A DNA stretch of 19,350 nucleotides from IMG/VR virus record IMGVR_UViG_2778261129_000006, one strand, 5' to 3'. Each line of letters begins with the position of its first letter. Within the stretch, counting starts at the first letter, position 1. This document shows, one piece after another, positions 1,598 through 17,416 of this stretch. The position numbers and the translations under genes were made by a program. The notes under the pieces are model-generated. The model made no database searches, was not told the origin of the DNA, and saw only the letters and a program-made list of their open reading frames with translations. The DNA is from a virus. Taxonomy: Duplodnaviria > Heunggongvirae > Uroviricota > Caudoviricetes.

Positions 1598-1712
1598 CAG
1601 AAAACCCTCCGAGTGGTACTTTTTTTTGCTACTACTAATCGCTTTTTTCGTGGTGGCTGAAATTTAGCCACCAATAGTAGGCACTTGTGATGAATATATT
1701 CACGATAAATTG

Positions 1713-2012
1713 TTAACCAGTCTTTTGACCGGAGTGGGGCGACGTTGTTTCGTTTTGCCCAAAGTGTGCGAGAGCGGGCGCAATTTGCCCGGCTTCTGGA
1801 GCTACCTGATCAGTCATGAACCACAAAGTATATTTAGTAAATCTAGGATGTTGTAAGACCTTCATTATGGCTTCAACTCCAGCGTTTTTTGACCGGCTCT
1901 CATAGCTCGAAAGTGAGCTGTAGGCTACACCAGTTAATTCACTGAATTCTTTACGGTTTAACCTTTCAGATTCACGGATTAGCTTCAACTTCTCCGAAAC
2001 GTCTATTGACAT
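1713..2012 (-). CDS. C: Immunity repressor, P2 C-like (99 aa)
   Basis: ATG at 2012 with GGAG SD. The ORF-track start at 2084 is an upstream extension. C-terminal half (FTKYTLWFMT...APALAHFGQNETTSPHSGQKTG) as recalled for P2 C. Divergent from cox. Confidence 0.75.
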   Translation of the reverse strand: MSIDVSEKLKLIRESERLNRKEFSELTGVAYSSLSSYESRSKNAGVEAIMKVLQHPRFTKYTLWFMTDQVAPEAGQIAPALAHFGQNETTSPHSGQKTG

Positions 2013-2090
2013 AATTACTCCGATTGCGTAATTTCTTGCTGATAGTGTGAAATGTTGTGCTTCTGGAGTTATCCTTTTAGGCAATAATTA

Positions 2091-2108
2091 GCCATTAGGA
2101 GCCATTAG
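2091..2108. promoter_or_regulatory. Direct repeats GCCATTAG x2 (2091-2098, 2101-2108) in the C/cox divergent control region; candidate repressor operator
   Basis: Two 8-bp direct repeats 10 bp centre to centre, about 26 bp upstream of the cox ATG. P2-type repressors bind direct repeats at the early promoter. Confidence 0.3.
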
Positions 2109-2133
2109 AAGCACTAAGGGAGAATCGTAGCAG

Positions 2134-2409
2134 ATGAATAGACAGCTTGTAAGCGTGACTGATGCCGTGCCTTATCAGGAGTTTGCAAAACTCATTGGTA
2201 AAACTCCAAGAGCTGTAAGGGGCATGATTGAGAAAGGGAAATTACCAGTTATTGAGATTACTGACCCTCAGTCAGTATCGGGGCGTGCTGGTGAATATTG
2301 GGTATACCTTCCGGCATGGAATAACGGACTAAAACTGGCTTATGAAAGCCGTCCTAAAGAGATTCGTGACGGCTGGTTGATGTGGTTAGGTCTCGGTGAA
2401 CCACGTTAA
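2134..2409 (+). CDS. cox: Cox excisionase / early-promoter regulator, P2 Cox-like (91 aa)
   Basis: Sequence (PYQEFAKLIGK...GKLPVI...GRAGEYWVYLPAWNNGLKLAYESRPKEIRDGWLMWLGLGEPR) as recalled for P2 Cox. Same 91-aa length. Confidence 0.85.
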   Translation: MNRQLVSVTDAVPYQEFAKLIGKTPRAVRGMIEKGKLPVIEITDPQSVSGRAGEYWVYLPAWNNGLKLAYESRPKEIRDGWLMWLGLGEPR

Positions 2410-2419
2410 GGAGAACCGT

Positions 2420-2590
2420 ATGAATGAGCCTCGTTGTATTGCTCAGTTATTGCGTAACGAAAGCCCTAGGGCGATTGACTTCACCATCACCCACGGTAAG
2501 GGGCGTAAGGGAATCATTATCCGCACCAAAAAACAGAGTCCGTTAAAAAAGGCTCTGACCTTTCTGAAAAGCCGGAGGGTCTGGAAATGA
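2420..2590 (+). CDS. Small hypothetical protein (56 aa) in the P2 orf78 position
   Basis: ATG at 2420 with AAGGAGA SD. Stop overlaps the B start (ATGA at 2587-2590). An in-frame upstream ATG at 2396 would overlap cox. Confidence 0.45.
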   Translation: MNEPRCIAQLLRNESPRAIDFTITHGKGRKGIIIRTKKQSPLKKALTFLKSRRVWK

Positions 2591-3087
2591 CAGTGATGAC
2601 GCTCAATCTCGTTGAAAAACAGCCAGCAGCTATGCGCCGGATAATTGGTAAGCATCTGGCCGTCCCTCGCTGGCAGGAGACATGCGATTATTATAATCAG
2701 ATGATGGAACGCGAACGGCTAACGGTTTGCTTCCATGCGCAGTTAAAACAGCGTCACGCAACGATGCGTTTTGAAGAAATGAACGACGTCGAACGTGAAC
2801 GGCTGGTTTGTGCAATTGATGAATTGCGTGGGGCATTCTCAAAACGCCGTCAGGTTGGCGCAAGTGAGTATGCATATATTAGTTTTTTAACAGTCAGTCA
2901 GCGTCGTACTTTATTTATGCATGCCGGATTGACTGAAAAAGAATTCAACCAGCCATACTGGCGAATTAATGAAGAATCATGTTACTGGCGTGATGCTTTA
3001 TTCCGTGCATTACGTGAATTATTCAGCCTGTTTGAGTATGCACCGACAATTCTGACGTCGGTAAAACCAGAGCAATATCTGCATTAA
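2587..3087 (+). CDS. B: Replication protein B, P2 gpB-like (166 aa)
   Basis: 166 aa, same length as P2 B. Position between cox and A. Start is translationally coupled to the upstream ORF. Confidence 0.75.
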   Translation: MTVMTLNLVEKQPAAMRRIIGKHLAVPRWQETCDYYNQMMERERLTVCFHAQLKQRHATMRFEEMNDVERERLVCAIDELRGAFSKRRQVGASEYAYISFLTVSQRRTLFMHAGLTEKEFNQPYWRINEESCYWRDALFRALRELFSLFEYAPTILTSVKPEQYLH

Positions 3088-3150
3088 ATAATTAACCAGA
3101 GTTTTTAATGCACTTAATCGTGCGGGGCTTCTTTTTGCCTGGAGAAAGTC

Positions 3151-3375
3151 ATGCATACAGTTTCTGAAAACAAGTGCGGTAAATACGCATTACTGCTGCA
3201 ACAGGCCAGAGCCGAAGCACATGCCGACGCAGCGACACGCTTTTCTTCTCATCTTGACGCCATGATTCGCCATATCACAAAGGCGGAGTTATCCCGCGTG
3301 GAGATAGTCGAGCTGCTCAGTCAGGAGTCGGAAAAATTTCACAATATCGGATTGTCTCGCGGGGAGGTGCTTTGA
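3151..3375 (+). CDS. Small hypothetical early protein (74 aa), P2 orf80-like position
   Basis: ATG with GGAGAAAG SD. Stop overlaps the next start (TGATG). Confidence 0.6.
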
Positions 3376-3674
3376 TGTCCTGTTCTCATTCAGTTGTATT
3401 ACTGAATAACGCCTTAAAAATCGCCGTTATGAAAAATGGCGATTTGTCTCTTATTCAACTTTGCCTTGATAAAGAAAAACGCGACATAACTGAATCTGTT
3501 ATCGCGATTTATCAGAATGAATTAAACCTCCTGTCTGATGTGGTCAATTTACTTGTTAAACGCGCTGTATTCCACAAGCAAATTTCCTCAGTGGATGAAC
3601 TGACAAAATTAACGACAGAACTTGCCAATTATTGCGCTGATGTATCCAGGAAACTTAACGATAAAAGGAGCTGA
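3375..3674 (+). CDS. Small hypothetical early protein (99 aa), P2 orf81-like position
   Basis: ATG at 3375 overlapping the upstream TGA, GGGGAGG SD. The ORF-track TTG at 3372 is less likely. Confidence 0.6.
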   Translation: MSCSHSVVLLNNALKIAVMKNGDLSLIQLCLDKEKRDITESVIAIYQNELNLLSDVVNLLVKRAVFHKQISSVDELTKLTTELANYCADVSRKLNDKRS

Positions 3675-3676
3675 TA

Positions 3677-3901
3677 ATGCCGGACAACGTAGATTTTATT
3701 CAGGAACAACAGGCTGAATTACTGGAGCGCCAGATTAACGCGGCAAGGGTAAAACATTGCGGTGCTTCTGCGCTGGTTTGCGAAGAGTGTAACGCGCCAA
3801 TACCTGCTGCCCGTCGTGCGGCTTACCCGTCAGCCACGCGTTGTGTTTCCTGTCAGTCAGTCTTTGAAGCAAAAAACAAACATTACCGGAGAACGGCATG
3901 A
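3677..3901 (+). CDS. TraR/DksA-family C4 zinc-finger protein (74 aa), P2 orf82-like
   Basis: AAGGAG SD. Four cysteines arranged as CxxC...CxxC (CEECNAP...CVSCQS), typical of phage TraR-like zinc fingers. Confidence 0.7.
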   Translation: MPDNVDFIQEQQAELLERQINAARVKHCGASALVCEECNAPIPAARRAAYPSATRCVSCQSVFEAKNKHYRRTA

Positions 3902-4173
3902 GTATTCGTATTGAAATTGGCGAACGTTATGTCGTTACCAGTGACAGCTTTCAGTTTATTCTCCACGAGAAAAAGAGAGCGGAAAGCGGTAAAAACGCCG
4001 GTCAGGAATGGCTGGCGGTGGTTGGTTATTACCCGAAATTAAGCCAGCTCGTTTCCGGCCTGATGCATCACGATATTCTTACCGGAAGCGCAAAGTCTTT
4101 TGCTGATTTAAACGCGCAGGTTGAGCAACTCAGCAAGCGTTGTTCAGAGGCTTTTGGCTCATATGGCCGTTAA
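3898..4173 (+). CDS. Small hypothetical early protein (91 aa), P2 orf83-like position
   Basis: ATGA overlap with the upstream stop. Its stop at 4171-4173 overlaps the A start region. Confidence 0.6.
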   Translation: MSIRIEIGERYVVTSDSFQFILHEKKRAESGKNAGQEWLAVVGYYPKLSQLVSGLMHHDILTGSAKSFADLNAQVEQLSKRCSEAFGSYGR

Positions 4174-6445
4174 AGCCTCCGGGCGTTTTGTCCCTCCGTC
4201 AGCATTTGCCGCAGGCACCGGTAAGACGTTTACCGGTGCTTATGCATGGAACGCGCCACGCGAGGCCGTCGGGCGCGAAAGACCCCTTACACGTGACGAG
4301 ATGCGTCAGGTGCAAGGTGTTTTATCCACGATTAACCGCCTGCCTTACTTTTTGCGCTCGCTGTTTACTTCACACTATGACTACATCCGGCGCAATAAAA
4401 GCCCGGTGCACGGGTTTTATTTCCTCACATCCACTTTTCAGCGTCGTTTATGGCCGCGCATTGAGCGTGTGAATCAGCGCCATGAAATGAACACCGACGC
4501 GTCGTTGCTGTTTCTGGCAGAGCGTGACCACTATGCGCGCCTGCCGGGAATGAATGACAAGGAGCTGAAAAAGTTTGCCGCCCGTATCTCATCGCAGCTT
4601 TTCATGATGTATGAGGAACTCAGCGATGCCTGGGTGGATGCACATGGCGAAAAAGAATCGCTGTTTACGGATGAGGCGCAGGCTCACCTCTATGGTCATG
4701 TTGCTGGCGCTGCACGTGCTTTCAATATTTCCCCGCTTTACTGGAAAAAATACCGTAAAGGACAGATGACCACGAGGCAGGCATATTCTGCCATTGCCCG
4801 TCTGTTTAACGATGAGTGGTGGACTCATCAGCTCAAAGGCCAGCGTATGCGCTGGCATGAGGCGTTACTGATTGCTGTCGGGGAGGTCAATAAAGACCGT
4901 TCTCCTTATGCCAGTAAACATGCCATTCGTGATGTGCGTGCACGCCGCCAGGCAAATCTGGAATTTCTTAAATCGTGTGATCTCGAAAACAGGGAAACCG
5001 GCGAGCGCATCGACCTTATCAGTAAGGTGATGGGCAGTATTTCTAATCCTGAAATTCGCCGGATGGAGCTGATGAACACCATTGCCGGTATTGAGCGTTA
5101 CGCCGCAGCAGAGGGTGATGTGGGGATGTTTATCACGCTGACCGCGCCGTCAAAGTATCACCCGACACGTCAGGTTGGAAAAGGCGAAAGTAAAACCGTC
5201 CAGCTAAATCACGGCTGGAACGATGAGGCATTTAATCCAAAGGATGCGCAGCGTTATCTCTGCCGTATCTGGAGCCTGATGCGCACGGCATTCAAGGATA
5301 ATGATTTACAGGTCTACGGTTTGCGTGTCGTCGAGCCACATCACGACGGAACGCCGCACTGGCATATGATGCTTTTTTGTAATCCGCGCCAGCGTAACCA
5401 GATTATCGAAATCATGCGTCGCTATGCGCTCAAAGAGGATGGCGACGAAAGAGGAGCCGCGCGAAACCGTTTTCAGGCAAAACACCTTAATCGGGGCGGT
5501 GCTGCGGGGTATATCGCGAAATACATCTCAAAAAACATCGACGGCTATGCACTGGATGGTCAGCTCGATAACGATACCGGCAGACCTCTGAAAGATACTG
5601 CCGCGGCTGTTACTGCATGGGCGTCAACGTGGCGCATCCCGCAATTTAAAACGGTTGGTCTGCCGACAATGGGGGCTTACCGTGAACTACGCAAATTGCC
5701 TCGCGGCGTCAGCATTGCTGATGAGTTTGACGAACGCGTCGAGGCTGCACGCGCTGCCGCAGACAGTGGCGATTTTGCGTTGTATATCAGTGCGCAGGGT
5801 GGGGCAAATGTTCCGCGCGATTGCCAGACTGTCAGAGTCGCCCGTAGCCCGTCGGATGAAGTTAACGAGTACGAGGAAGAAGTCGAGAGAGTGGTCGGCA
5901 TTTACGCGCCGCATCTCGGCGCGCGTCATATTCATATCACCAGAACGACGGACTGGCGCATTGTGCCGAAAGTTCCGGTCGTGGAGCCTTTGACTTTAAA
6001 AAGCGGCATCGCCGCGCCTCGGAGTCCTGTCAATAACTGTGGAAAGCTCACCGGTGGTGATACTTCGTTATCGGCTCCCACACCGACTGAGCATGCTGCA
6101 GCGGTGTTAAATTTTATAGATGAAGGGATTCTAAGTTGGACCGAGCCAGGCATTATGAAGGTACTTAGAGACTTATTGAGTAATGAACTGAAATGCAGTA
6201 ATCGTTCACAGCAGAGCTTTACTCCTTTCAATGGTCGAAGCTACTTTCCTGCCCCATCCGCCCGGTTGACAAGGCAGGAGAGAAAGACTATCCCGAAAAT
6301 TAAGGTTCTTCTTGCACAAAGTGACATTCAGGCTAGTTATTGGGAGCTTGAAGCTCTCGCTCGCGGAGCTGTTTTGGATTTTGGGCATAAGCGTTTTAAA
6401 TTTGATACCGATATCGACTTTTTTGACAGACAGCGTGAGTGGTAG
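4163..6445 (+). CDS. A: Replication initiation endonuclease, P2 gpA-like rolling-circle initiator (760 aa)
   Basis: Start at ATG 4163 (MAVKASGRFVPP), not the ORF-track ATG at 4121. HUH-type motifs HWHMMLF and AAGYIAKYISK. Length close to P2 A. This is not a P4 alpha primase-helicase. Confidence 0.9.
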   Translation: MAVKASGRFVPPSAFAAGTGKTFTGAYAWNAPREAVGRERPLTRDEMRQVQGVLSTINRLPYFLRSLFTSHYDYIRRNKSPVHGFYFLTSTFQRRLWPRIERVNQRHEMNTDASLLFLAERDHYARLPGMNDKELKKFAARISSQLFMMYEELSDAWVDAHGEKESLFTDEAQAHLYGHVAGAARAFNISPLYWKKYRKGQMTTRQAYSAIARLFNDEWWTHQLKGQRMRWHEALLIAVGEVNKDRSPYASKHAIRDVRARRQANLEFLKSCDLENRETGERIDLISKVMGSISNPEIRRMELMNTIAGIERYAAAEGDVGMFITLTAPSKYHPTRQVGKGESKTVQLNHGWNDEAFNPKDAQRYLCRIWSLMRTAFKDNDLQVYGLRVVEPHHDGTPHWHMMLFCNPRQRNQIIEIMRRYALKEDGDERGAARNRFQAKHLNRGGAAGYIAKYISKNIDGYALDGQLDNDTGRPLKDTAAAVTAWASTWRIPQFKTVGLPTMGAYRELRKLPRGVSIADEFDERVEAARAAADSGDFALYISAQGGANVPRDCQTVRVARSPSDEVNEYEEEVERVVGIYAPHLGARHIHITRTTDWRIVPKVPVVEPLTLKSGIAAPRSPVNNCGKLTGGDTSLSAPTPTEHAAAVLNFIDEGILSWTEPGIMKVLRDLLSNELKCSNRSQQSFTPFNGRSYFPAPSARLTRQERKTIPKIKVLLAQSDIQASYWELEALARGAVLDFGHKRFKFDTDIDFFDRQREW

Positions 6446-6533
6446 TTGAAAAAACGGTTGAACGGGGTAACAATATGTTATTGTTGAGGAATTGTTTGTT
6501 ATGGTTTAATTTTTATACACGGCAGAAAAGCAT

Positions 6534-7757
6534 ATGAGCATGGTTGAATGGATAAGCCACGAGAAAAAAGATAGCCTGATACTATTTGTACATGGATTAA
6601 ATGGTGGTTTGGAAACATGGAACTTTAATAAAGAAATTTCATTTCCAAAACTATTAGCAGAAGATGAAGATATTAGCAACGTATTTGATATTGCATGTTT
6701 CAATTATTTTACTAAATTCACACAAACGTATGCTAAAACGTCAGGATTCTTGGCTCGTATTTTCTTTAAGAAAAATAAGTTAGAGAGAAATTTACCAACT
6801 GATGAAATAGCTGAGTTATTGTATACTGAGATTAGAGTAACACTAAGTGATTACTCTCGAATTATAATAATCGCCCATAGTATGGGGGGGTTAATATCAA
6901 AAAATCTAATTCTAAAAAAAGTTGAGCATGAGGAACAATCTAATATAATTGGATTCATTTCGTTAGCAGTCCCTCACTTTGGTGCTAAATTAGCGAATAT
7001 AACTTCAATGGTATCTTCAAATGCTCAGTTAGTAGATCTTGGATTGTTAAGTGAAGCGACTGATACATTGAATAGGCGCTGGATAAATTGTAGCAAAAAA
7101 CTTCCTATCACTAGATATGTTTATGGATCTCATGACACTATAGTCGATAAAAAAAGCGCATTACCGATGGATAGTGAACGACATAACTCAATTGCAGTTA
7201 ATGAAGGGCATAGCTCAATTTGCAAGCCCGAAAATAGCTCGTCTACAGTGTTTGTTGCGGTAAAGCAATTTATTCAGCAGATAAATTTAGAAGCACCCAA
7301 GAAGATTTGCGTTGAGCGTTTTTCTGATGATAAACAATATGATAATGAGTATTTCGTCTTAAAAATGATTGTCGCAGATATACATCAGGATATCGCTCTG
7401 CATGCAAAGGAATATTATTATAATGCTGAGCTTGCGAGAAATATTTTTACGAGTGATTACGATAGAAAACAACTTGGTCATTTGTATTCTAAAATAAGGG
7501 AGATTTACCAGGAAGAGTATGAGCAATACATTGCAAATTCAATTTCCCCAGATAAATTTATTGCTGCTGTTCATAGACGAATAACCCAGGAGGATAAGTC
7601 GTCGTTAGATTCTCTTATAAAAAGTTTGGAAACGATACATAAGAAAGGAATGTTGCATCAACTGGCTAACAAAAATGACAGGGATATTGTCTGGTCATCT
7701 GAAACCAGCGTAGAAACTTTGGAGCAATTACGGCGAGGTAATCATGAAGAAAAATAA
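6534..7757 (+). CDS. Alpha/beta-hydrolase-fold effector protein with a helical C-terminal domain (407 aa); Lamassu LmuA-like / ABC-3C effector candidate
   Basis: Oxyanion-hole motif LILFVHGLNGG. Nucleophile elbow IIIAHSMGGL (GxSxG). Downstream acid and His candidates (GSHDTIVD, NEGHSSI). AT-rich. First gene of the cargo operon. Confidence 0.75.
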   Translation: MSMVEWISHEKKDSLILFVHGLNGGLETWNFNKEISFPKLLAEDEDISNVFDIACFNYFTKFTQTYAKTSGFLARIFFKKNKLERNLPTDEIAELLYTEIRVTLSDYSRIIIIAHSMGGLISKNLILKKVEHEEQSNIIGFISLAVPHFGAKLANITSMVSSNAQLVDLGLLSEATDTLNRRWINCSKKLPITRYVYGSHDTIVDKKSALPMDSERHNSIAVNEGHSSICKPENSSSTVFVAVKQFIQQINLEAPKKICVERFSDDKQYDNEYFVLKMIVADIHQDIALHAKEYYYNAELARNIFTSDYDRKQLGHLYSKIREIYQEEYEQYIANSISPDKFIAAVHRRITQEDKSSLDSLIKSLETIHKKGMLHQLANKNDRDIVWSSETSVETLEQLRRGNHEEK

Positions 7758-7896
7758 CTTGCCGTATATACCTCTTGATGAAGAGTATAGTTTGAATTTT
7801 GCTATGCTTGCCATTGCTATATCTATATTATCTCATAGCAAAAAAGGAGTGTTGTCATTAGATATTAATAAAATACAAATTTTTATGTATCTGTGA
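7744..7896 (+). CDS. Small ORF (50 aa); possibly the N-terminal part of a frameshifted middle-component gene
   Basis: ATG at 7744 with GAGGT SD 5 nt upstream. Overlaps the hydrolase gene end by 14 nt. Its TGA (7894-7896) overlaps the GTG start of the next ORF. Confidence 0.35.
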   Translation: MKKNNLPYIPLDEEYSLNFAMLAIAISILSHSKKGVLSLDINKIQIFMYL

Positions 7897-8258
7897 TAAA
7901 AAATCCATCAAAAATTGATTGTGCTCTTACAGTTTCGGGGAAAAAGCCTGCTTGTGTCGAGTCCCAGTTAACTTATACAATAAAGAGTTTTTCATCAAAT
8001 GTAGATATCTTATTCGACAATTCCAAAGTGAAATATCTTATAAAAATTATGTCATTGCGGGGATTGCTCTCAGCTGAGAAAAAAAATAATGAGAGTGTTA
8101 AATTATTTTTATCTGAAAAAGGTAAGGAATTTGCTAGCTCATTGACTGATGGATATTTTAAAGAAATAAAACGACTAGCCGAAGCATTGTTACCGCTACA
8201 AGCATTGCCTACCTCTAAGTTAAACTCTGTTATAAACAAAGTCTTCAAGGAGAAATGA
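7893..8258 (+). CDS. Small middle-component protein (121 aa from GTG); LmuC-like candidate
   Basis: Frame opens at 7872; first start is GTG at 7893 with no clear SD. Stop overlaps the ATPase start (ATGA at 8255-8258). A small coupled gene between effector and ATPase. Confidence 0.5.
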   Translation: MIKNPSKIDCALTVSGKKPACVESQLTYTIKSFSSNVDILFDNSKVKYLIKIMSLRGLLSAEKKNNESVKLFLSEKGKEFASSLTDGYFKEIKRLAEALLPLQALPTSKLNSVINKVFKEK

Positions 8259-10225
8259 TGAAATCATATCTCAATATCAATAGTTTGATTCTTGTTGGCG
8301 TTCGTAAAAACTACGTCACTACTTTTTATAAAGGTCTCAATGTTATCTACGGAGACTCTGACACAGGTAAGTCAAGTATTCTGGAGTTTATTAATTATCT
8401 TTTAGGTGCTAGTTCTATAGATTTAGCAGATGAAATAAAAACATCAGTAAACTATGCTGCTCTTGAAGTAGTGATCAATGATACTGTATTCACAATCGTA
8501 AGAGATATCTATGATCATAAAAAATCAATAGAAGTTTATCGTTGTAAGTTTGATGATTTACATAAACACTTTCCGAAAAAATACGCTCCTAATTATAGCC
8601 CCTTATCAAATGTTGATGGCGTTTTTTCAGAGTTTTTACTTGATAGTCTTAATTTTCCAAAAATTGAAATTAAGGTGTCTCCTTCTAAAGCACATTCACA
8701 GATGCGCAGGTTAAGCTTTAGAAATATATATAAATTTGTTTATGTAAGTCAGGATGATATTGGTAGTAAATCATTCTTACGATTGGAGGATTGGTCCCGT
8801 TACGCATTTACGAAAGAAGTTTTTAAATACATGTTCAATGTGTTGGATGAAAGCATCGCCAGACTCCAAGGTGAAATATCTGCAAAAAGTAGTTTAGTAA
8901 CGGAACTAAATAAGAAGTATCAGATAATATCTGAATTTCTTCGCGATACAGACTATGAAACAATTGAATCAATTGATGATGAGATTAATAGGATAGATCT
9001 TATTTTAGAAGAACTTGTTGCAGGTTTGTCTGCTCTCGATAAAAATATGAAAGCGGATTCCATGCAGTATACAGAATTGAAAGATGCCCACAATTTTATT
9101 TCGCTTAAATACAAGGAGTGCATATTAAATATTAGCACGCTTGAGGATAAGATTGATAAATATTCGCGGTTAAAAAATGACTATGATAATGATATTGAAA
9201 AACTCAAAGCGATTAAAACAGCAAATTCTCGCATTGGTGTATTGGATAAGGAAGTATTTTCCTGTCCGATCTGTGATAGCCACATTAAAATAGATGATTC
9301 CGATTTTCCATTTGAAATTTCATCAGAAAAAGATCTTAATGAAGAGTTGAATTCACTTAGTCGACGTAGACGAAATATTAATGACATGATCTCAGAAATG
9401 TCATTTAAATTAAAAAAAGAATCTGGTTATAAAAAAGAATTAGATGAACAACTTGACGAGTTGAGAGAGTTAATTGACGAAGAAAGCCAGTCAATGATTA
9501 CACCATTCTTGACTCAGAGAGATTTTTATATTAAAGAGATATCAAAAAACGAGAAGGTTAGGGAGCAGTTAGTAAAAGATTTGAAGGTTAGAAACCAGCA
9601 AGAGGAACTGCTTGAAAAGCATCAGGTACTGATAAAAGATATTGAAACATTAACTGAACGCTTGGATGCGTTAAAGAAAAACGCACCTAGTATGGAAGGC
9701 ATTTTACAAGGTTTAGGTGATAGATTTAGTCAGTATTTGAAGGGTATTAATATCAAAAACAGAACGGGGATAAAAATCTCTGAAAGATATTACACCCCTG
9801 TTATAAGAGGAAAGGAATATTTTAAAATAACGTCCGGAGGTTTGAGAACTATTTCTTCTATTGGGTATCTTTTGTCTATTCTTGATTATGCAATAGACCA
9901 TAATGTTAACCATCCTTTACTTTTGATATTTGATACGGTTGGTAAATATTTAGGGAAACAGACCAAGGAAAAATACTCAAAAGAAACTCTTGCAGTCGAG
10001 GATGACCTTGAGGGGATGTCAGACCCGATGAAGTATCAAAATATTTATGAGCAACTATTGAATACAGTTCAAAAAGCAGAAAGAAAAAATGTTCCGTGCC
10101 AGATTATATTAGTTGATAATGATTTGCCTAATTCGTTTTCTACTGGTGAACTTTCGAATATTATCGCTCATTATAGCTCGGTTGGTGAGGATGGTTTGCC
10201 TTTAGGTTTAATTGATGACCTTTAA
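8255..10225 (+). CDS. SMC/Rad50-like ABC ATPase with coiled-coil insert (656 aa); Lamassu LmuB-like candidate
   Basis: Degenerate Walker A YGDSDTGKSS (8348-8377). Long heptad-rich coiled-coil region with a central CPIC motif (9263-9274). ABC signature-like TSGGLR (9829-9846). Walker B-like LLLIFD followed by T, not E. CAAGGAGA SD. Confidence 0.8.
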   Translation: MMKSYLNINSLILVGVRKNYVTTFYKGLNVIYGDSDTGKSSILEFINYLLGASSIDLADEIKTSVNYAALEVVINDTVFTIVRDIYDHKKSIEVYRCKFDDLHKHFPKKYAPNYSPLSNVDGVFSEFLLDSLNFPKIEIKVSPSKAHSQMRRLSFRNIYKFVYVSQDDIGSKSFLRLEDWSRYAFTKEVFKYMFNVLDESIARLQGEISAKSSLVTELNKKYQIISEFLRDTDYETIESIDDEINRIDLILEELVAGLSALDKNMKADSMQYTELKDAHNFISLKYKECILNISTLEDKIDKYSRLKNDYDNDIEKLKAIKTANSRIGVLDKEVFSCPICDSHIKIDDSDFPFEISSEKDLNEELNSLSRRRRNINDMISEMSFKLKKESGYKKELDEQLDELRELIDEESQSMITPFLTQRDFYIKEISKNEKVREQLVKDLKVRNQQEELLEKHQVLIKDIETLTERLDALKKNAPSMEGILQGLGDRFSQYLKGINIKNRTGIKISERYYTPVIRGKEYFKITSGGLRTISSIGYLLSILDYAIDHNVNHPLLLIFDTVGKYLGKQTKEKYSKETLAVEDDLEGMSDPMKYQNIYEQLLNTVQKAERKNVPCQIILVDNDLPNSFSTGELSNIIAHYSSVGEDGLPLGLIDDL

Positions 10226-10353
10226 TACTATACATGCATTTTTTTGAATTAGATTGCATGTGGATAATGAGTCTATTTAGTGAAGGGAAGGTTTTGTGTG
10301 ACGTGACTTTCGATAAAATTCAACCGCATTAAAACCGCCCCATGAAGCGGGCG

Positions 10354-10372
10354 GGCGAGGCGGGGAAAGCAC
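10354..10372. other. cos cohesive-end site, P2-type 19-mer GGCGAGGCGGGGAAAGCAC
   Basis: Exact match to the recalled P2 cohesive end. Lies in a GC/GT-rich non-coding region between the cargo and portal gene Q, as in P2. Confidence 0.6.
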
Positions 10373-10513
10373 TGCGCGCTGGCGGTGGTGCTGATTTTAT
10401 TTTTTAGCGTCTCAGCGCGTCGTGATGGCGTTTAGATTGTGCGCCGGGGCGTTGGTGTGTCTGCGGGGTGTTTTGTGCGGTGGTGAGCGTGTGAGGGCGT
10501 GATGACGGGGTGT

Positions 10514-10535
10514 AAAAAAGCCGCCCGCAGGCGGC
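10514..10535 (-). terminator. Rho-independent terminator downstream of Q (minus strand)
   Basis: Stem gccgcc/ggcggc with a 4-nt loop (10520-10535). The A6 run at 10514-10519 on the plus strand is a U-tract after the hairpin on the minus strand. Confidence 0.5.
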
Positions 10536-10540
10536 GATGT

Positions 10541-11515
10541 TCAGCCGTTGTCAGTGTCCAGTGAGTAGTTTTTAAAGCGGATGACCTCCTGACCGAGCCA
10601 GCCGTTTATCTCACGGATCCTGTCCTGTAACGGGATAAGCTCATTGCGGACAAAGACCTTTGCCACTTTCTCAATATCACCCAGCGACCCGACGTTCTCC
10701 GGCTTGCCGCCCATCAACTGAAAGGGGATGCGGTGCGCGTCCAGCAGGTCTGCGGCACTGGCTTTTTTGATATTAAAAAAATCGTCCTTCGTCGCCACTT
10801 CACTGAGCGGGATAATTTTAATGCCGTCGGCTTTTCCCTGTGGGGCATAGAGAAACAGGTTTTTAAAGTTGTTGCGGCCTTTCGACTTCACCATGTTTTC
10901 GCGAAGCATTTCGATATCGTTGCGATCCTGCACGGCATCAGTGACGTACATGATGTATCCGGCATGTGCGCCGTTTTCGTAATACTTGCGGCGGAACAGC
11001 GTGGCCGACTCATTCAGCCAGGCAGAGTTAAGGGCGCTGAGATATTCCGGCAGGCCGTACAGCTCCTGATTAATATCGGGCTCCAGCAGGTGAAACACGG
11101 AACCGGGCGCGAAGGCTGTCGGTTCGTTGAAGGACGGCACCCACCAGTAAACATCCTCCTCCACGCCACGGCGGGTATATTTTGCCGGTGAGGTTTCCAG
11201 TCTGATGACCTTACCGGTGGTGCTGTAACGCTTTTCCAGAAACGCATTACCGAACACCAGAAAATCCAGCACAAAGCGGCTGAAATCCTGCTGGGAAAGT
11301 CGCCGAAAATCGCCAGTGTGCATCAGTTCGGTCTGTCGGAAGAAACCCGGAAAGACGGTAAGAAAATTGATTATCCGGCGCGTCCTCTGCTCGGCTTTAC
11401 CGGTGAGGATGTGCAGATGATTGAAGAGATTATCCTGGCTCACCTTGAGCGTTAGTTTTATCCAGGCAGAGGCTGATGCGCAATTAAACATTGAGCGGCC
11501 ATGCTGGTCGCTCAA
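10541..11515 (-). CDS. Q: Capsid portal protein, P2 gpQ-like; probably N-terminally truncated
   Basis: C-terminal region recalled as P2 portal. The longest frame starts only at TTG 11515 (first ATG at 11491), with an in-frame stop just upstream. 324 aa against about 344 aa recalled for P2 Q. Confidence 0.7.
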   Translation of the reverse strand: MSDQHGRSMFNCASASAWIKLTLKVSQDNLFNHLHILTGKAEQRTRRIINFLTVFPGFFRQTELMHTGDFRRLSQQDFSRFVLDFLVFGNAFLEKRYSTTGKVIRLETSPAKYTRRGVEEDVYWWVPSFNEPTAFAPGSVFHLLEPDINQELYGLPEYLSALNSAWLNESATLFRRKYYENGAHAGYIMYVTDAVQDRNDIEMLRENMVKSKGRNNFKNLFLYAPQGKADGIKIIPLSEVATKDDFFNIKKASAADLLDAHRIPFQLMGGKPENVGSLGDIEKVAKVFVRNELIPLQDRIREINGWLGQEVIRFKNYSLDTDNG

Positions 11516-11526
11516 TGTTTAGAGGC

Positions 11527-12312
11527 TTATGAGTGATTTTTATTTGATGCTTTGTATTCTACAACCTTCTTATTGGCGTAAAGGAATTTTGTATATGACA
11601 GGAATATAACCAGACCTGAAATGAAATAGATGAGGGATATTATTAATAATGCTTTTTTTTGGCTGTTATTATCTTTAATTTCCTGACTTAACCATTCCGA
11701 GTCCTCCTCGTTTAGCTGTAAGAGCTTATTGCAGGCGATCTCAGGAAGTGTGTCTTTTATAAATATGTTTCGTAGCCTCTTGCAATCGGCAAGGCTATAA
11801 GTTTTATTGAATTCAACTGTTTTATTGTTGAAGGATAAAAGAACTTTGTCACTATAAACATAGTACATCATATTTTTATATGGTATGCCTATGGCATCTC
11901 TTACTATAGCGGATTGTTTGTTGTGTATATAACATGCGAAGAGAATATAAATAATGCTGGACAGAATTACAATTATTGTTTTAATTATGTGTGGTGGTTT
12001 TGTTATGTCACCCCAGAAGCGAGTAAGAAAAAAATACGATGTTTTTAGTTTTCCATCAATCAGCCCCTGCTGTATCATTCTCACATCTTCGATGCCTGAT
12101 ACATTGATTCCGTTAATTATTTTAAATAGTTGAATGTCGCGCCATTTTTTGTCGAGCATTTTTAACTTTCTGTCTGAATACTCAAAATTGAAATGATGTG
12201 CAATAAACCTCATAAGATTACTTTTACCAAAGGTAATAAATGTTAATGCTATTAATAAAAATAGATACAAAGAGATAAACCACCACGCATTAGTCACATT
12301 ATCACTGAACAT
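11527..12312 (-). CDS. Membrane protein with three predicted TM segments (261 aa); unknown function; AT-rich cargo
   Basis: ATG at 12312 with GAGGAG SD 6 nt upstream. Hydrophobic helices at the N-terminus (WWFISLYLFLLIALTFITF), middle (IIKTIIVILSSIIYILFACYI) and C-terminus (ALLIISLIYFISGLVIFLSY). Base composition unlike the flanking phage DNA. Confidence 0.7.
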   Translation of the reverse strand: MFSDNVTNAWWFISLYLFLLIALTFITFGKSNLMRFIAHHFNFEYSDRKLKMLDKKWRDIQLFKIINGINVSGIEDVRMIQQGLIDGKLKTSYFFLTRFWGDITKPPHIIKTIIVILSSIIYILFACYIHNKQSAIVRDAIGIPYKNMMYYVYSDKVLLSFNNKTVEFNKTYSLADCKRLRNIFIKDTLPEIACNKLLQLNEEDSEWLSQEIKDNNSQKKALLIISLIYFISGLVIFLSYTKFLYANKKVVEYKASNKNHS

Positions 12313-12395
12313 TACGCTCTCCTCGAATGTTGTATGGTCGTTCTACAAATGAATCCAGATAGCATAACTTTTATATATTGTGCAATCTCACACGC

Positions 12396-12830
12396 ATGAA
12401 CACTCTCGCAAATATTCAGGAACTCGCGCGCGCACTGCGCAACATGATTCGTACCGGCCTTGTCGTCGAAACCAACCTTAAAGCCGGTCGCTGCCGTGTG
12501 CAGACCGGTGGCATGTGCACTGACTGGCTTCAGTGGCTGACCCATCGTGCCGGACGTTCGCGCACATGGTGGGCACCTTCCGTGGGGGAACAGGTGCTGA
12601 TTCTGGCTGTGGGCGGTGAACTCGACACGGCGTTCGTTCTGCCGGGGATTTATTCCGGCGATAACCCCGCGCCGTCTGCGTCGGCGGATGCCCTGCATAT
12701 CCGTTTCCCTGACGGGGCGGTGATTGAGTATGAACCCGAAACCAGTGCACTCACGGTAAGAGGAGCTTCTCTGGTGGTGTCTACGTGCTGTTGTCAGCCA
12801 GGTGGATTTGTTAATGGAACGCTTTGTTGA
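12396..12830 (+). pseudogene. V: Baseplate spike gpV fragment: first ~115 codons V-like, then unrelated sequence
   Basis: MNTLANIQELARALRNMIRTG...EYEPETSALTV as recalled for the P2 V N-terminus. The ORF then reads RGASLVVSTCCCQPGGFVNGTLC and stops; P2 V is about 211 aa. Confidence 0.7.
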
Positions 12831-13081: not shown

Positions 13082-14196
13082 TTATATTTTTTCGCAAAAA
13101 GAAGAATAATCTCCACAGATTAAGCAACTGACAAGCTCTCTTTGTGCGGGATATATTTGGGACTCATTTACAAGCCCTGTATATGGTAAGAGTGATTTAT
13201 GTATCAAGTTAAAAACGTGAGACTTCTCATTAGTTGTTAAACTTTTTTTGGATAATATGGATGCCAAGTGCTCAACGCAAATAACCAGCCATGCATTAAA
13301 CATTTTTACTATTTCTGCTTCATTTTTATTGCTTGATAAGATATAAATCAAACCTGTTTGTAATACCAAGGCTCTTTGTTTAATGGAGAAAGATGTTTTA
13401 GATAGATGTGGTTCTTCATGGCGATTCAGAGAGTAGTAGCCCTTTCTTGCCAGTATAGATATCGTATTAGCTACAGTTAGGCTCTGGCAAGAAAAAAGCA
13501 TATCCTCATAGACTGAAATTGATGGGTTAAATAAGATGTTGTTATTGATTAGCAACTCTCTTTTAAAGAACTTGAAGATTTTTAATGATCTAAAAAGATG
13601 GTTTTTTATAATATCTGCTTTATTCGTGTCTGCCTTAAATGGGCGTACAGGAACCCCTCTCCCTGTAGAGGAAACCTGCTTGAAATATACAATGTCACTA
13701 TTGTTTTTATAAGCCATCTGAATACCATCGGACAGTAAGTCAGAGTGAATGGAATCATCAGAGTCTAAGAAAAACACATAGCGACCTTTTGCGGATTTTA
13801 TTCCCTCATTTCGCGGCGCTGATGCATTCCCTGAACCAACTGCTCTACGGATAATACGATAATTTATTTCTCTCGAAATGTTATATTCAATGGCGGCAAT
13901 GCTCCTGTCAGTGGAACAGTCATCAATGAAAATAACTTCAAAACAATTTTTATCTATAGTCTGATTGTTTAAAGATTTAATGCATTCGAGAATAAGGGTT
14001 TCTCGGTTGTGAACCGGAATAACAACTGAGACATCAAAGGGATAAATAGAATTAATTTCATTAATTACCGTTGTGATTTTTAGAAGAGAAGTATGCAGGG
14101 CTGTTGTTAAAACAGCAGAAGATGAAATGTTTTCTTTTTTAGTGTTGCCTTTTATAGTATAATAAGGGCAATTATTTCGTAGTACAAAATCCACAT

Positions 14197-14200
<4 letters not shown>
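13082..14200 (-). CDS. Family-2 (GT-A fold) glycosyltransferase (372 aa from GTG)
   Basis: VSVVIPVHNRE motif, FIDDCSTD and FLDSDD (DxD) motifs. AT-rich. The only start in frame is GTG at 14200, overlapping the stop of the upstream small ORF, with no obvious SD. Confidence 0.8.
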
Positions 14201-14391
<191 letters not shown>

Positions 14392-16636: not shown

Positions 16637-17416
16637 ATGGCAATGCCGCGCAAACTCAAGTTAATGAACGTCTTTCTGAACGGCTACAGCTATCAGGGCG
16701 TTGCAAAGTCCGTCACGCTGCCAAAACTGACCCGTAAGCTCGAAAACTATCGCGGTGCGGGGATGAACGGCAGCGCACCGGTAGACCTCGGCCTTGATGA
16801 CGATGCGCTGTCAATGGAGTGGTCGCTCGGTGGATTCCCGGATTCGGTTATCTGGGAGCTTTACGCCGCAACCGGTGTGGATGCCGTGCCGATTCGTTTT
16901 GCAGGCTCTTACCAGCGCGACGATACAGGCGTAACGGCAAAGTGGTTACACACCAAAGACCCGAAACCGCAAAAGCAGAAGGTAAAACTGAAACGCAAAA
17001 AGAAAGAGAAACACCTGCGCGCACTGGAGCACCCGAACGCGAAACCGGTCAGGCAGAAGAAAGCGCCTAAAGTACCGGAAGCGCGTGAAGGTGAATACAT
17101 GGCCGGTGAGGCTGACAACGTTTTTGCCCTGACCACGGTATATGCCACGAAAGCGCAGGCCATGCGCGCCGCTCAGGCGAAGTGGGATAAGCTGCAACGG
17201 GGCGTTGCGGAGTTCTCCATCAGTCTGGCTACCGGTCGTGCTGATATTTACACGGAAACACCGGTTAAAGTGTCAGGCTTTAAGCGCGTCATAGACGAGC
17301 AGGACTGGACAATCACTAAGGTGACACATTTTCTGAATAATAGCGGCTTCACGACGTCCCTGGAGCTTGAGGTCAGGCTTTCTGATGTGGAGTACGAAAC
17401 AGAAGATGATGAGTGA
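16637..17416 (+). CDS. Chimeric ORF: tail tube gpFII N-terminus (~97 aa) fused in frame to a Lys-rich segment and the gpD C-terminus (259 aa)
   Basis: N-terminus MAMPRKLKLMNVFLNGYSYQGV...SYQRDDTG recalled as P2 FII (172 aa in P2). C-terminus ...WTITKVTHFLNNSGFTTSLELEVRLSDVEYETEDDE resembles the late-control D protein (yegZ-like). E, T and U are absent. Confidence 0.65.
   Translation: MAMPRKLKLMNVFLNGYSYQGVAKSVTLPKLTRKLENYRGAGMNGSAPVDLGLDDDALSMEWSLGGFPDSVIWELYAATGVDAVPIRFAGSYQRDDTGVTAKWLHTKDPKPQKQKVKLKRKKKEKHLRALEHPNAKPVRQKKAPKVPEAREGEYMAGEADNVFALTTVYATKAQAMRAAQAKWDKLQRGVAEFSISLATGRADIYTETPVKVSGFKRVIDEQDWTITKVTHFLNNSGFTTSLELEVRLSDVEYETEDDE

What the first reader, a model, noticed from the sequence alone, without database searches (positions are those of the whole stretch)
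11527..12377. Orphan membrane-protein gene inserted between portal Q and the V fragment
A 261-aa protein with three hydrophobic helices and a strong SD sits alone in AT-rich DNA where P2 has genes P through S. It truncates the Q 5' end on one side and leaves about 83 bp before the V start on the other. Single membrane proteins carried by prophages often act in superinfection exclusion or abortive infection; no recognizable domain could be assigned by eye.
Basis: partly seen in the sequence, partly recalled or inferred. Interest (0 to 1): 0.55.

Follow-up and report, generated by a model that had tools for sequence, protein, structure and literature searches.

The report
Phage P2 orf30, native position
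The "orphan" membrane-protein gene is the long-known but still uncharacterised orf30 of phage P2, sitting in its normal place in a decayed P2-like prophage of an E. coli B-type strain, so the gene is ordinary although its function remains unknown.

Summary
The ORF is real: 11527-12312 on the minus strand, 261 aa, GAGGAG Shine-Dalgarno, 3 hydrophobic helices, GC about 0.32.

It is not a novel insertion. It is the ortholog of phage P2 orf30: 84% aa identity to AAD03281.1 ("nonessential"), 100% to E. coli B REL606 WP_000490543.1, and a phrog_2407 match at E=1.8e-143. It lies in orf30's native slot between tail gene S and baseplate gene V.

It did not truncate Q. A separate deletion of P2 946-9205 (joint at 11294-11299) fused a Q 3' fragment to a 162-bp S 3' fragment. 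That fragment and the O-operon terminator lie between Q' and the ORF.

The family is small: 44 clusters at 50% identity among 1.84 billion proteins. It is distantly linked to Pfam DUF6216 and has no sequence or fold match to anything characterised.

Divergent members (21-34% identity) occupy the same S-V slot in other P2-like prophages. WPhi and 186 have the slot empty. In Pantoea a decayed prophage retains only this gene.

Inferred topology is N-out/C-in, with a cytoplasmic helical domain and a periplasmic domain carrying two Cys in 27 of 27 members.

The best functional guess, which is inference only, is a lysogen-expressed inner-membrane exclusion protein. Interest is low to moderate.

The parts
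11527..12312 (-). orf30 CDS: 261 aa, 30.7 kDa, pI 9.4, predicted 3-TM inner-membrane protein
   Evidence: ORF list. 84.3% aa identity to P2 Orf30, 99.6% to Peduovirus P24A7b. phrog_2407 at E=1.8e-143. Equals WP_000490543.1 in REL606. Hydropathy. AlphaFold model pLDDT 86.
12319..12324 (-). Shine-Dalgarno GAGGAG, 6 nt upstream of the ATG
   Evidence: Read directly from the sequence.
11486..11520 (.). Perfect 12-bp inverted repeat (AAACATTGAGCG / CGCTCAATGTTT), the hairpin between the S stop and the orf30 stop. It corresponds to the P2 'putative rho-independent terminator for O operon' and probably ends both convergent transcripts.
   Evidence: RNAfold gives -30.7 kcal/mol on the plus strand and -24.6 on the minus strand. 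P2 annotates the terminator at 9397-9433. The coordinate map comes from the BLAST.
12313..12395 (.). 83-nt orf30-V intergenic region. It holds the late promoter pV and its Ogr/activator-binding site (P2 10239-10266, about window 12327-12354) on the plus strand, and the orf30 5' leader on the minus strand. No consensus sigma-70 promoter for orf30 was found.
   Evidence: P2 annotation mapped by the +2088 offset. The promoter scan finds no minus-strand site upstream of 12312. Alignment of upstream regions.
11458..12395 (.). The whole 'orf30 cassette': the block present in P2 and this window, replaced by a 64-66 bp unrelated spacer in phage WPhi. The slot is likewise empty in phage 186.
   Evidence: Homology to WPhi stops at 11457 and resumes exactly at the V ATG, 12396. 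WPhi and 186 annotations.
11294..11455 (+). gpS (tail completion) C-terminal fragment, 53 codons plus stop, 97.5% nt identity to P2
   Evidence: BLAST to P2 9206-9367. phrog_26 tail completion hit. REL606 pseudogene annotation.
10541..11299 (-). gpQ (portal) C-terminal fragment, a pseudogene lacking its 5' end
   Evidence: BLAST to P2 187-945. Pfam Phage_portal. REL606 annotation 'missing N-terminus'.
11294..11299 (.). Deletion joint with 6-bp overlap that fuses P2 position 945 to 9206. It removes Q5', P, O, N, M, L, X, Y, K, lysA/B/C, R and S5'.
   Evidence: BLAST of window against P2. The joint is present in only 11 complete genomes, all with E. coli B-type names.
12396..12764 (+). gpV (baseplate spike) N-terminal fragment. 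It is cut at a second deletion joint (12754-12764, 11-bp overlap) that removes V3', W, J, I and most of H relative to REL606.
   Evidence: BLAST against P2 and REL606. Pfam Phage_base_V. No complete RefSeq E. coli genome carries this second joint in one piece.

Best explanation
**Identity (shown).** The ORF is the ortholog of bacteriophage P2 orf30, a non-essential, AT-rich, horizontally acquired gene (a 'moron'). It occupies its native slot between tail-completion gene S and baseplate gene V and is transcribed opposite to the flanking late operons. Here it lies inside a deletion-riddled P2-like prophage of an E. coli B-type strain, between yegR and yegQ.

**Product (inferred from sequence and family statistics).** The protein is a 3-TM inner-membrane protein.
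- The N-terminus faces the periplasm.
- An approximately 80-aa helical cytoplasmic domain carries the family motif D-x-Q-L-F-[KR]-x-x-N-G-I-N-V.
- An approximately 80-aa periplasmic beta-sheet/helix domain is probably locked by one disulfide.
- A short basic tail lies in the cytoplasm.
- No catalytic-looking invariant residues are present.

**Function (inference only, about 0.35).** It is expressed from the prophage rather than with the virion genes. It benefits the lysogen by acting at the inner membrane against other phages. The most likely mechanism is blocking genome entry or ejection-protein function, that is, superinfection exclusion by protein-protein interaction. This would be analogous in logic, not in ancestry, to P22 SieA, T4 Imm and HK97 gp15.
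For: **Identity**
- 84.3% aa identity to AF063097 Orf30 over the full length; 21 phage records match, all Peduovirus or P2-like.
- phrog_2407 at E=1.8e-143.
- Colinear BLAST: window 11294-12764 equals P2 9206-10676 at 93.3%.
- The P2 record annotates orf30 as 'nonessential', between the O-operon terminator and the pV activator site.
- Identical to WP_000490543.1 of REL606.
- The literature calls Orf30 'unknown' and names its locus as one of three variable P2 regions acquired horizontally (PMC3091744; PMC6823313).

**It is a real, selected gene**
- Intact in 461 of 5426 complete E. coli genomes.
- dN/dS against P2 is 0.42 overall, 0.25 for the cytoplasmic loop and 0.14 for the periplasmic loop. 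TM1 is hypervariable at 1.19.

**Dispensable moron**
- The slot is empty in WPhi and 186.
- Slot-gene GC is 0.34 against 0.48-0.60 in the flanks, in every locus examined.

**Family behaviour**
- Members only 21-34% identical sit in the same slot and orientation in other P2-like prophages. Their V, R and J proteins are 73-84% identical to P2.
- In Pantoea a member is the last gene after cI and int at a prophage end, overlapping the int stop codon.
- In Pantoea ARC270, 94-nt att repeats enclose only an int remnant plus this gene.
- Stand-alone chromosomal copies exist in Enterobacter.

**Topology**
- Across 27 members the N-terminus has essentially no K/R (mean 0.0; one residue in one member).
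- Loop 1 has net charge +5.1 and the C-tail +1.9.
- Loop 2 has exactly 2 Cys in 27 of 27 members.
- AlphaFold model: pLDDT 86, pTM 0.75.

**Context**
- In this prophage one of the other two P2 accessory slots carries a Lamassu defence system; the other carries a GT2 glycosyltransferase, whose weaker PHROG matches include GtrB-like O-antigen-conversion families (best match phrog_22088 has no known function).
- In P2 itself both of those slots carry exclusion genes: old/tin and fun(Z).
Against: - There is no experimental or homology evidence for any function.
- No hit in PADLOC for the query or for 27 family members.
- No significant Pfam, NCBIfam or PDB sequence hit.
- hhalign probability is at most 1.4% against P22 SieA/SieB, HK97 gp15, lambda SieB/RexB and P2 Tin/Fun/LysA/Y.
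- No consensus sigma-70 promoter was found upstream, so expression in the lysogen is assumed, not shown.
- From my own knowledge, not checked here: classical P2 genetics mapped exclusion phenotypes to old, tin and fun, and none to orf30.
- The gene's survival in the E. coli B remnant could be chance. The Q'-S' joint is confined to 11 B-type genomes.
Confidence: 0.45

Rival explanations
1. Abortive-infection or membrane-effector reading. Orf30 is a membrane sensor or effector that, on infection by another phage, perturbs the inner membrane (depolarisation or leak) and kills or arrests the cell. It would work like lambda RexB or the TM effectors of other defence systems.
For: It is a single TM protein carried by a prophage in an accessory slot. 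It has domains on both faces of the membrane, which could couple periplasmic sensing to a cytoplasmic or membrane response. The neighbouring accessory slot holds Lamassu, an abortive system.
Against: There is no pore-like or multi-TM bundle, only 3 TMs, and TM1 is hypervariable (dN/dS 1.19), which is unexpected for a channel lining. There is no partner gene in any context. hhalign probability to RexB is 0.1%. PADLOC gives nothing.
Confidence: 0.15
2. Lysogenic conversion unrelated to phage defence. The protein modifies host envelope physiology, for example stress tolerance, interaction with a host inner-membrane complex, or colonisation or virulence fitness.
For: The gene is retained as the only surviving gene of a decayed prophage in Pantoea. 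It occurs as a stand-alone chromosomal gene in Enterobacter, next to envelope-related genes: OMP beta-barrel, an ECF sigma factor and a DsbD/DsbA cluster. One member lies in a non-phage context. These point to a host-beneficial role that does not need a phage.
Against: The same retention pattern is expected for a defence gene. No conserved neighbour or partner suggests a pathway. There is no enzymatic motif: the invariant residues are G67, G86, C193 and I211 only.
Confidence: 0.2
3. Accessory function in the P2 life cycle itself, for example lysis timing, protection of the lysing cell from re-adsorption, or help in tail or baseplate assembly at the membrane. It would be non-essential in the laboratory.
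For: One protein family keeps the same slot between S and V across P2-like phages that are otherwise 73-84% identical in neighbouring proteins. The cassette carries the pV promoter region.
Against: It is transcribed opposite to both late operons. On its own strand it has no recognisable promoter, and the annotated Ogr/activator-binding site belongs to the divergent pV. WPhi and 186 are viable phages with an empty slot. Family members persist where no phage morphogenesis genes remain. P2 annotates it as nonessential. hhalign probability against P2 LysA and holin Y is at most 1.4%.
Confidence: 0.1
4. One reading: a foreign gene inserted into the prophage, displacing P through S and truncating Q.
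For: The AT-rich ORF does lie between a truncated Q and V in this window.
Against: P2 carries the same gene at the same place. An S fragment and the O-operon terminator separate the ORF from Q'. The deletion joint is 228 bp away from the ORF stop, at 11294-11299.
Confidence: 0.01
5. A non-functional, decaying ORF.
For: It lies in a heavily deleted prophage, and no promoter was recognised.
Against: The full-length frame is conserved in 461 genomes and 21 phage records. dN/dS is 0.14-0.25 in the soluble domains. The SD is strong. The chance of 261 open codons at this composition is about 1e-9.
Confidence: 0.02

Closest known systems
Bacteriophage P2 Orf30 (AAD03281.1; AF063097 9439-10224, minus strand; 'nonessential')
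   Same: Same length (261 aa), 84% aa and 91% nt identity, same position between S and V, same orientation, same terminator and pV context, same low GC. It is an ortholog.
   Different: It is a different allele. The N-terminus and TM1 are only 43% identical. Here it sits in a defective prophage, not a viable phage.
Pfam DUF6216 (PF19723), uncharacterised gammaproteobacterial membrane proteins
   Same: 9 of 27 family members hit DUF6216, best E=8.7e-7. P0037, a precomputed PF19723 member, is found by the orf30-only profile at E=1.7e-12. Length and 3-TM architecture are the same.
   Different: The window protein itself does not match the Pfam model at E<=0.1. The family has no known function, so this adds no mechanism.
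P22 SieA, HK97 gp15 and T4 Imm (prophage or phage inner-membrane superinfection-exclusion proteins)
   Same: They work-alike only. They are small inner-membrane proteins. P22 sieA is transcribed from its own promoter, opposite to the adjacent late structural genes, which is the arrangement of orf30. HK97 gene 15 is annotated as a moron within the tail gene region, on the same strand as its neighbours.
   Different: There is no detectable homology: hhalign probability is at most 1% for SieA and gp15. No family member gave a significant match to any Pfam family other than DUF6216. Pfam's exclusion-protein models were not checked individually and T4 Imm was not fetched. Orf30 is larger and has structured domains on both membrane faces. 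No exclusion phenotype is known.
P2 accessory 'hotspot' cargo (old/tin slot; Z/fun slot)
   Same: AT-rich, non-essential, independently transcribed, variable between P2-like phages. In P2 both other slots encode exclusion functions. In this window one holds Lamassu and the other a GT2 glycosyltransferase. Older literature lists the orf30 locus as the third such region (PMC3091744).
   Different: Recent hotspot surveys describe only the old/tin and Z/fun hotspots, plus one near cI (bioRxiv 10.1101/2024.10.15.618418; PMC9122126). The S-V slot is mostly filled by one protein family or is empty, rather than by a diverse repertoire.

Membership tests
P2 orf30 orthologous group | Full-length sequence similarity to P2 Orf30 (AAD03281.1) | tested here: met
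   tblastn: 84.3% identity over residues 1-261, E=4e-123. dN/dS 0.42.
P2 orf30 orthologous group | Located between tail-completion gene S and baseplate gene V, on the opposite strand, bounded by the O-operon terminator and pV | tested here: met
   Colinear BLAST: window 11294-12764 equals P2 9206-10676. P2 feature table. REL606 annotation.
P2 orf30 orthologous group | Low G+C relative to the phage backbone | tested here: met
   GC is 0.32-0.34 against 0.54-0.60 for S and V.
PHROG phrog_2407 (unknown function) | Significant full-length match to the profile | tested here: met
   E=1.8e-143 over 1-261 of 261. All 27 family members match.
Pfam DUF6216 (PF19723) | Score above the Pfam gathering threshold for the model | tested here: not met
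   The window protein has no DUF6216 hit at E<=0.1. Only transitive homology exists, through 9 of 27 relatives and P0037.
Known anti-phage defence systems (PADLOC-DB v2) | Match to any defence-protein model | tested here: not met
   0 families for the query. Only isolated hits at E>=0.007 for 3 of 27 relatives.
Inner-membrane superinfection-exclusion or Rex proteins (P22 SieA/SieB, HK97 gp15, lambda SieB/RexB) | Detectable sequence or profile homology | tested here: not met
   hhalign of the 27-sequence profile against each gives probability <=1.0%. No such Pfam family appears among the hits of 27 members.
Inner-membrane superinfection-exclusion or Rex proteins | Exclusion phenotype on expression (block of DNA entry or abortive infection) | not testable with these tools
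   Needs phage challenge of an orf30-expressing strain.
P2 lysis proteins (holin Y, antiholin LysA) | Homology, or membership of the late O operon | tested here: not met
   hhalign probability is 0.2% for Y and 1.4% for LysA. The gene is on the strand opposite to the O operon.
Prophage 'moron' (independently transcribed accessory gene) | Absent from otherwise colinear relatives; own translation signals and terminator; atypical composition | tested here: met
   Empty slot in WPhi and 186, with homology breaking exactly at the S stop and the V start. SD. Hairpin terminator. GC. Its own promoter was not identified.

The most novel reading that the evidence does not exclude
Orf30 and its relatives (phrog_2407, distantly DUF6216) could be a previously unrecognised class of single-gene, prophage-encoded inner-membrane anti-phage proteins. 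They would use a disulfide-stabilised periplasmic domain and a conserved cytoplasmic helical domain to block genome delivery by competing phages. That would make the S-V slot a third functional defence locus of P2-like phages, and one that host chromosomes domesticate.
Probability: 0.3. Interest if true: 0.55.

Novelty: already known. Interest (0 to 1): 0.3.

Why it matters
As an object this is already catalogued. The P2 reference record annotates orf30, the gene is present in about 8.5% of complete E. coli genomes, and it is always called hypothetical.

It matters only as a reminder that one of the few P2 genes still lacking any function sits in laboratory workhorse strains of the E. coli B lineage. 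The analysis also gives a sharper, testable description:
- a 3-TM inner-membrane protein with one domain on each face;
- a conserved periplasmic Cys pair;
- presence/absence polymorphism at a precisely bounded cassette;
- independent retention after prophage decay.

If it proved to be an exclusion gene, the three AT-rich P2 accessory loci would all be anti-phage functions. E. coli B would then be known to carry one more resident defence that could bias phage host-range work.

Tried and rejected
- **Sequence-based annotation.** Pfam gave only a sub-threshold DUF6535 hit on TM1. NCBIfam, PADLOC and a PDB sequence profile gave nothing.
- **Direct profile comparison** to P22 SieA/SieB, HK97 gp15, lambda SieB/RexB, P2 Tin/Fun/LysA/Y and P22 GtrA was all negative.
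- **Promoter search.** No sigma-70-like site lies upstream on the minus strand at the tool's threshold. By eye only a weak TTCATG-17-TATATA overlaps the V start. I do not claim it.
- **Literature.** No paper in the library assigns a function to P2 orf30, and the accession WP_000490543 is not mentioned anywhere. The Christie & Calendar P2 review could not be retrieved.
  - A 2026 preprint, 'H-NS silences antiviral immunity through 3D chromatin compaction' (10.64898/2026.09.05.749240), contains the words DUF6216 (1), P2-like (4), transmembrane (1), Lamassu (3) and BL21 (29).
  - It may therefore discuss this very locus, but its text could not be opened. I take nothing from it beyond the word counts.
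- **Scan of genome contigs.** The 27-sequence alignment failed for lack of a conserved stretch. A 6-sequence alignment returned only three Enterobacter loci.
- **'Long retention in an old remnant' as evidence of selection in E. coli.** Rejected, because the Q'-S' joint occurs in only 11 B-type genomes.
Full report
**1. The observation**

The window contains an ATG-initiated ORF of 261 codons at 11527-12312 on the minus strand. A GAGGAG Shine-Dalgarno lies at 12319-12324, 6 nt before the start codon (sequence).

The ORF lies in a trough of G+C, 0.32-0.34, between flanks of about 0.55.

A Kyte-Doolittle scan gives three hydrophobic segments at about residues 5-31, 106-132 and 218-246. The protein is 30.7 kDa with pI 9.4.

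At this base composition about 7.5% of random codons are stops. An open frame of 261 codons therefore has a chance of about 1e-9 (my arithmetic).

**2. What it is**

A megablast of 11400-12500 finds 100% identical DNA in E. coli B strains such as REL606 and ATCC 11303. In REL606 the ORF is WP_000490543.1, 'hypothetical protein'. It sits inside a P2-like prophage remnant between yegR and yegQ.

A tblastn against phage genomes finds 21 records, all P2 or close relatives. Identity is 99.6% to Peduovirus P24A7b and 84.3% over the full length to Orf30 of the reference P2 genome (AF063097, 9439-10224, minus strand). The protein matches phrog_2407 (unknown function) end to end at E=1.8e-143.

The P2 record annotates orf30 as 'nonessential'. 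It places the gene between the putative O-operon terminator (9397-9433) and the activator-binding site of the late promoter pV (10239-10266).

BLAST of the window against P2 shows that window 11294-12764 is colinear with P2 9206-10676 at 93.3% identity. That block comprises the last 162 bp of S, the terminator, orf30, pV and the first 369 bp of V. The gene is therefore in its native position.

**3.

The truncation of Q has nothing to do with this ORF. Window 10354-11299 equals P2 1-945, which is cosL plus the 3' part of Q. This abuts P2 9206 with a 6-bp overlap at 11294-11299. A single deletion thus removed P2 946-9205: Q5', P, O, N, M, L, X, Y, K, lysA/B/C, R and S5'.

Two features lie between that joint and the ORF:
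- a gpS C-terminal fragment at 11294-11455 on the plus strand (phrog_26 tail completion; annotated as a pseudogene in REL606);
- a perfect 12-bp-arm hairpin at 11486-11520.

The 83-nt gap to the V start codon at 12396 is correct.

A second deletion has its joint at 12754-12764 with an 11-bp overlap. It removes V3'-W-J-I-H5' relative to REL606. No complete RefSeq E. coli genome has this second joint in one piece. The Q'-S' joint is found in only 11 genomes, all with B-type names.

**4. The slot**

In phages WPhi and 186 the S-V interval is only 66-69 bp and holds no gene. Homology between the window and WPhi stops at 11457, 2 nt after the S stop, and resumes exactly at the V ATG. The orf30 cassette is therefore 11458-12395, and it brings its own version of the pV region.

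The literature treats the orf30 locus as one of three regions of P2-like genomes where horizontally acquired genes are found. It lists Orf30's function as unknown (PMC3091744). Phage R18C has a different 741-bp ORF there (PMC6823313). A Burkholderia phage has a DNA methylase there (PMC13366799).

Recent hotspot surveys mention only the old/tin and Z/fun hotspots, and one near cI.

Among complete E. coli genomes, 464 of 5426 carry orf30 at 87-100% nt identity, always annotated hypothetical. About 1555-1640 genomes have P2-type S or V flanks.

**5. The family**

A word-indexed search found only five 90%-identity clusters. An exhaustive HMMER search of 1.84 billion representatives, using the orf30 profile, found 44 clusters at E<=1e-3. 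Nearly all full-length members are 250-270 aa.

Findings on a 27-sequence alignment:
- All 27 match phrog_2407.
- 9 of 27 match Pfam DUF6216, best E=8.7e-7. The window protein itself does not.
- Invariant residues are only G67, G86, C193 and I211. Near-invariant residues are G28, Q60, D75 and K253.
- The cytoplasmic motif is D-x-Q-L-F-[KR]-x-x-N-G-I-N-V. Nothing looks catalytic.

**6. Genomic contexts of relatives**

- Members 32%, 30% and 21-25% identical to the window protein (P0006, P0008, P0026) lie in exactly the same S-V slot, on the opposite strand, in complete P2-like prophages.
  - In those loci gpV, gpR and gpJ are 73-84% identical to P2, with gpW lower at 59-76%. The slot protein is only 26-34% identical, and its GC is 0.34 against 0.48-0.60.
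  - gpS is also divergent there, at 47-49%. Part of the divergence may therefore reflect exchange of old allelic modules rather than fast evolution alone.
- In Pantoea sp. S-LA4 a member is the last gene after cI, a YebY-like gene and int, at the end of a 186-like prophage. It overlaps the int stop codon. From general knowledge of 186-type phages, this is the lysogenic operon position.
- In Pantoea sp. ARC270, 94-nt direct repeats (97% identical; the rplS 3' end, that is, the att site) enclose only an int fragment and this gene.
- In Enterobacter there are stand-alone chromosomal copies with no P2 gene within 5 kb.
- One member sits in an unrelated biosynthetic neighbourhood.

**7. Protein architecture**

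With the 27-sequence alignment AlphaFold gives pLDDT 86 and pTM 0.75. Numbering follows the model, which starts at residue 2 of the ORF.

| Element | Residues |
|---|---|
| TM1 | 2-27 |
| Helical domain | 29-93 |
| TM2 | 108-132 |
| Four-stranded sheet | 140-172 |
| Two short helices | 173-178, 188-197 |
| Long helix containing TM3 | 201-259 |

Statistics across the 27 members:
- The N-terminal stub has essentially no Lys/Arg (mean 0.0; one residue in one member).
- Loop 1 has net charge +5.1.
- Loop 2 has net charge -0.7.
- The C-tail has net charge +1.9.
- Loop 2 has exactly two cysteines in 27 of 27 members, while loop 1 usually has none.

By the positive-inside rule, and because paired cysteines are typical of periplasmic domains, I infer this topology: N-out, loop 1 cytoplasmic, loop 2 periplasmic with one disulfide, C-in. 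I could not measure the Cys-Cys distance because model coordinates are not exposed.

Against P2, dN/dS is 0.42 overall. Per domain it is 0.25 for loop 1, 0.14 for loop 2 and 1.19 for the N-terminus plus TM1, where aa identity is 43%. The two soluble domains are therefore the constrained, functional parts. TM1 behaves as a mere anchor.

**8. Attempts to assign function**

All attempts were negative.
- PADLOC, NCBIfam and a PDB sequence profile gave nothing.
- Foldseek against PDB gave best E=0.07 with TM about 0.15. Foldseek against BFVD gave best E=0.16.
- hhalign against P22 SieA/SieB, HK97 gp15, lambda SieB/RexB, P2 Tin, Fun(Z), LysA and holin Y, and P22 GtrA gave probability <=1.4% in every case.
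- No consensus sigma-70 promoter lies upstream on the orf30 strand. The 83-nt leader overlaps the pV activator site. Expression timing is therefore unknown.

**9. Most likely mechanism (inference)**

The gene is dispensable for P2-type phages. It is oriented against both late operons, is compositionally foreign, and persists where the rest of the prophage has decayed or is absent. At least once it sits at the end of a cI-int operon. These features fit a lysogen-expressed accessory gene that benefits the host.

In P2 the other two AT-rich accessory loci both encode exclusion functions, old/tin and fun(Z). In this window one of them holds a Lamassu system and the other a glycosyltransferase.

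The protein is non-enzymatic and has structured domains on both faces of the inner membrane. Its most economical role is to interfere with another phage's genome delivery or ejection proteins, that is, superinfection exclusion.

My probability estimates:

| Reading | Probability |
|---|---|
| Superinfection exclusion | about 0.35 |
| Non-defence lysogenic conversion | about 0.2 |
| Abortive-infection effector | about 0.15 |
| Accessory role in P2's own cycle | about 0.1 |
| Junk ORF | about 0.02 |
| Something not considered | remainder |

P22 sieA offers the closest analogy in gene organisation: own promoter, opposite strand, at the end of the late structural genes. There is no homology between the two.

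**10. Novelty and verdict**

The feature is already known: it is P2 orf30 in its native place.

What remains open is the function of Orf30. None of the papers I could search assigns one.

A 2026 preprint on H-NS silencing in BL21 contains the words DUF6216, P2-like, transmembrane and Lamassu. It may bear on this gene, but I could not read it.

Interest is 0.3. The object is ordinary, but it is a tidy, testable candidate for a third P2 exclusion locus.

Noticed in passing
window 6534-10225 (+): A complete three-gene Lamassu / ABC-3C system lies here. LmuA (6534-7757) has an alpha/beta-hydrolase domain plus CTD8. LmuC / middle component 4 is at 7893-8258. LmuB, an SMC-like ATPase, is at 8255-10225 and hits PADLOC at E=1e-233. 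The system occupies the P2 old/tin slot between gene A and cos/Q, replacing P2 29998-33546.
   Followed up: partly
window 13082-14200 (-): An AT-rich family-2 glycosyltransferase (Pfam Glycos_transf_2, E=1.6e-28) sits in the P2 Z/fun slot, between the tail-fibre remnant and FI. Its best PHROG match is phrog_22088 (unknown function), and it also hits GtrB-like O-antigen-conversion PHROGs. It is a probable lysogenic-conversion gene. A small upstream ORF (14197-14391) ends in an ASQP ASQP ASQ repeat.
   Followed up: partly
window 12754-12764: A second deletion joint with 11-bp overlap removes about 4.8 kb (V3', W, J, I, most of H) relative to REL606. None of 5426 complete RefSeq E. coli genomes has this joint in one piece. 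The window also differs from REL606 at about 13 positions in 19 kb. It therefore comes from a B-related strain, or a derivative, that is not in that collection.
   Followed up: partly
window 1843-2155: Homology to P2 breaks across the N-terminal part of the repressor gene C, the Pe/Pc operator region and the start of cox. The flanks are 96-98% identical. This prophage therefore has a heterologous immunity region. From memory, not checked, this matches the E. coli B cryptic prophage that donated the immunity of the classical hybrid 'P2 Hy dis'.
   Followed up: no
window 16925-16937: A third internal deletion joint with 13-bp overlap fuses P2 19155 (within FII) to 23463 (within D). It removes FII3', E, E', T, U and D5'. 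ogr and attR follow. The prophage has thus lost parts of all its morphogenesis operons while keeping int, C, cox, B, A, ogr and all three accessory loci.
   Followed up: partly
L007 7365-8952 (Pantoea sp. ARC270) and L003 5759-8979 (Pantoea sp. S-LA4): The same chromosomal site downstream of rplS holds a full 186-like prophage in one Pantoea strain. In another it holds only an integrase fragment plus the orf30-family gene, between 94-nt att repeats. This is a clear example of a prophage reduced to a single retained cargo gene.
   Followed up: yes
PMC6823313 (text): That paper describes P2 ORF30 as 'short, 261-bp-long'. The P2 record shows it is 786 bp and 261 aa. The statement that R18C has a longer replacement ORF (741 bp) therefore rests on a unit slip.
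   Followed up: no
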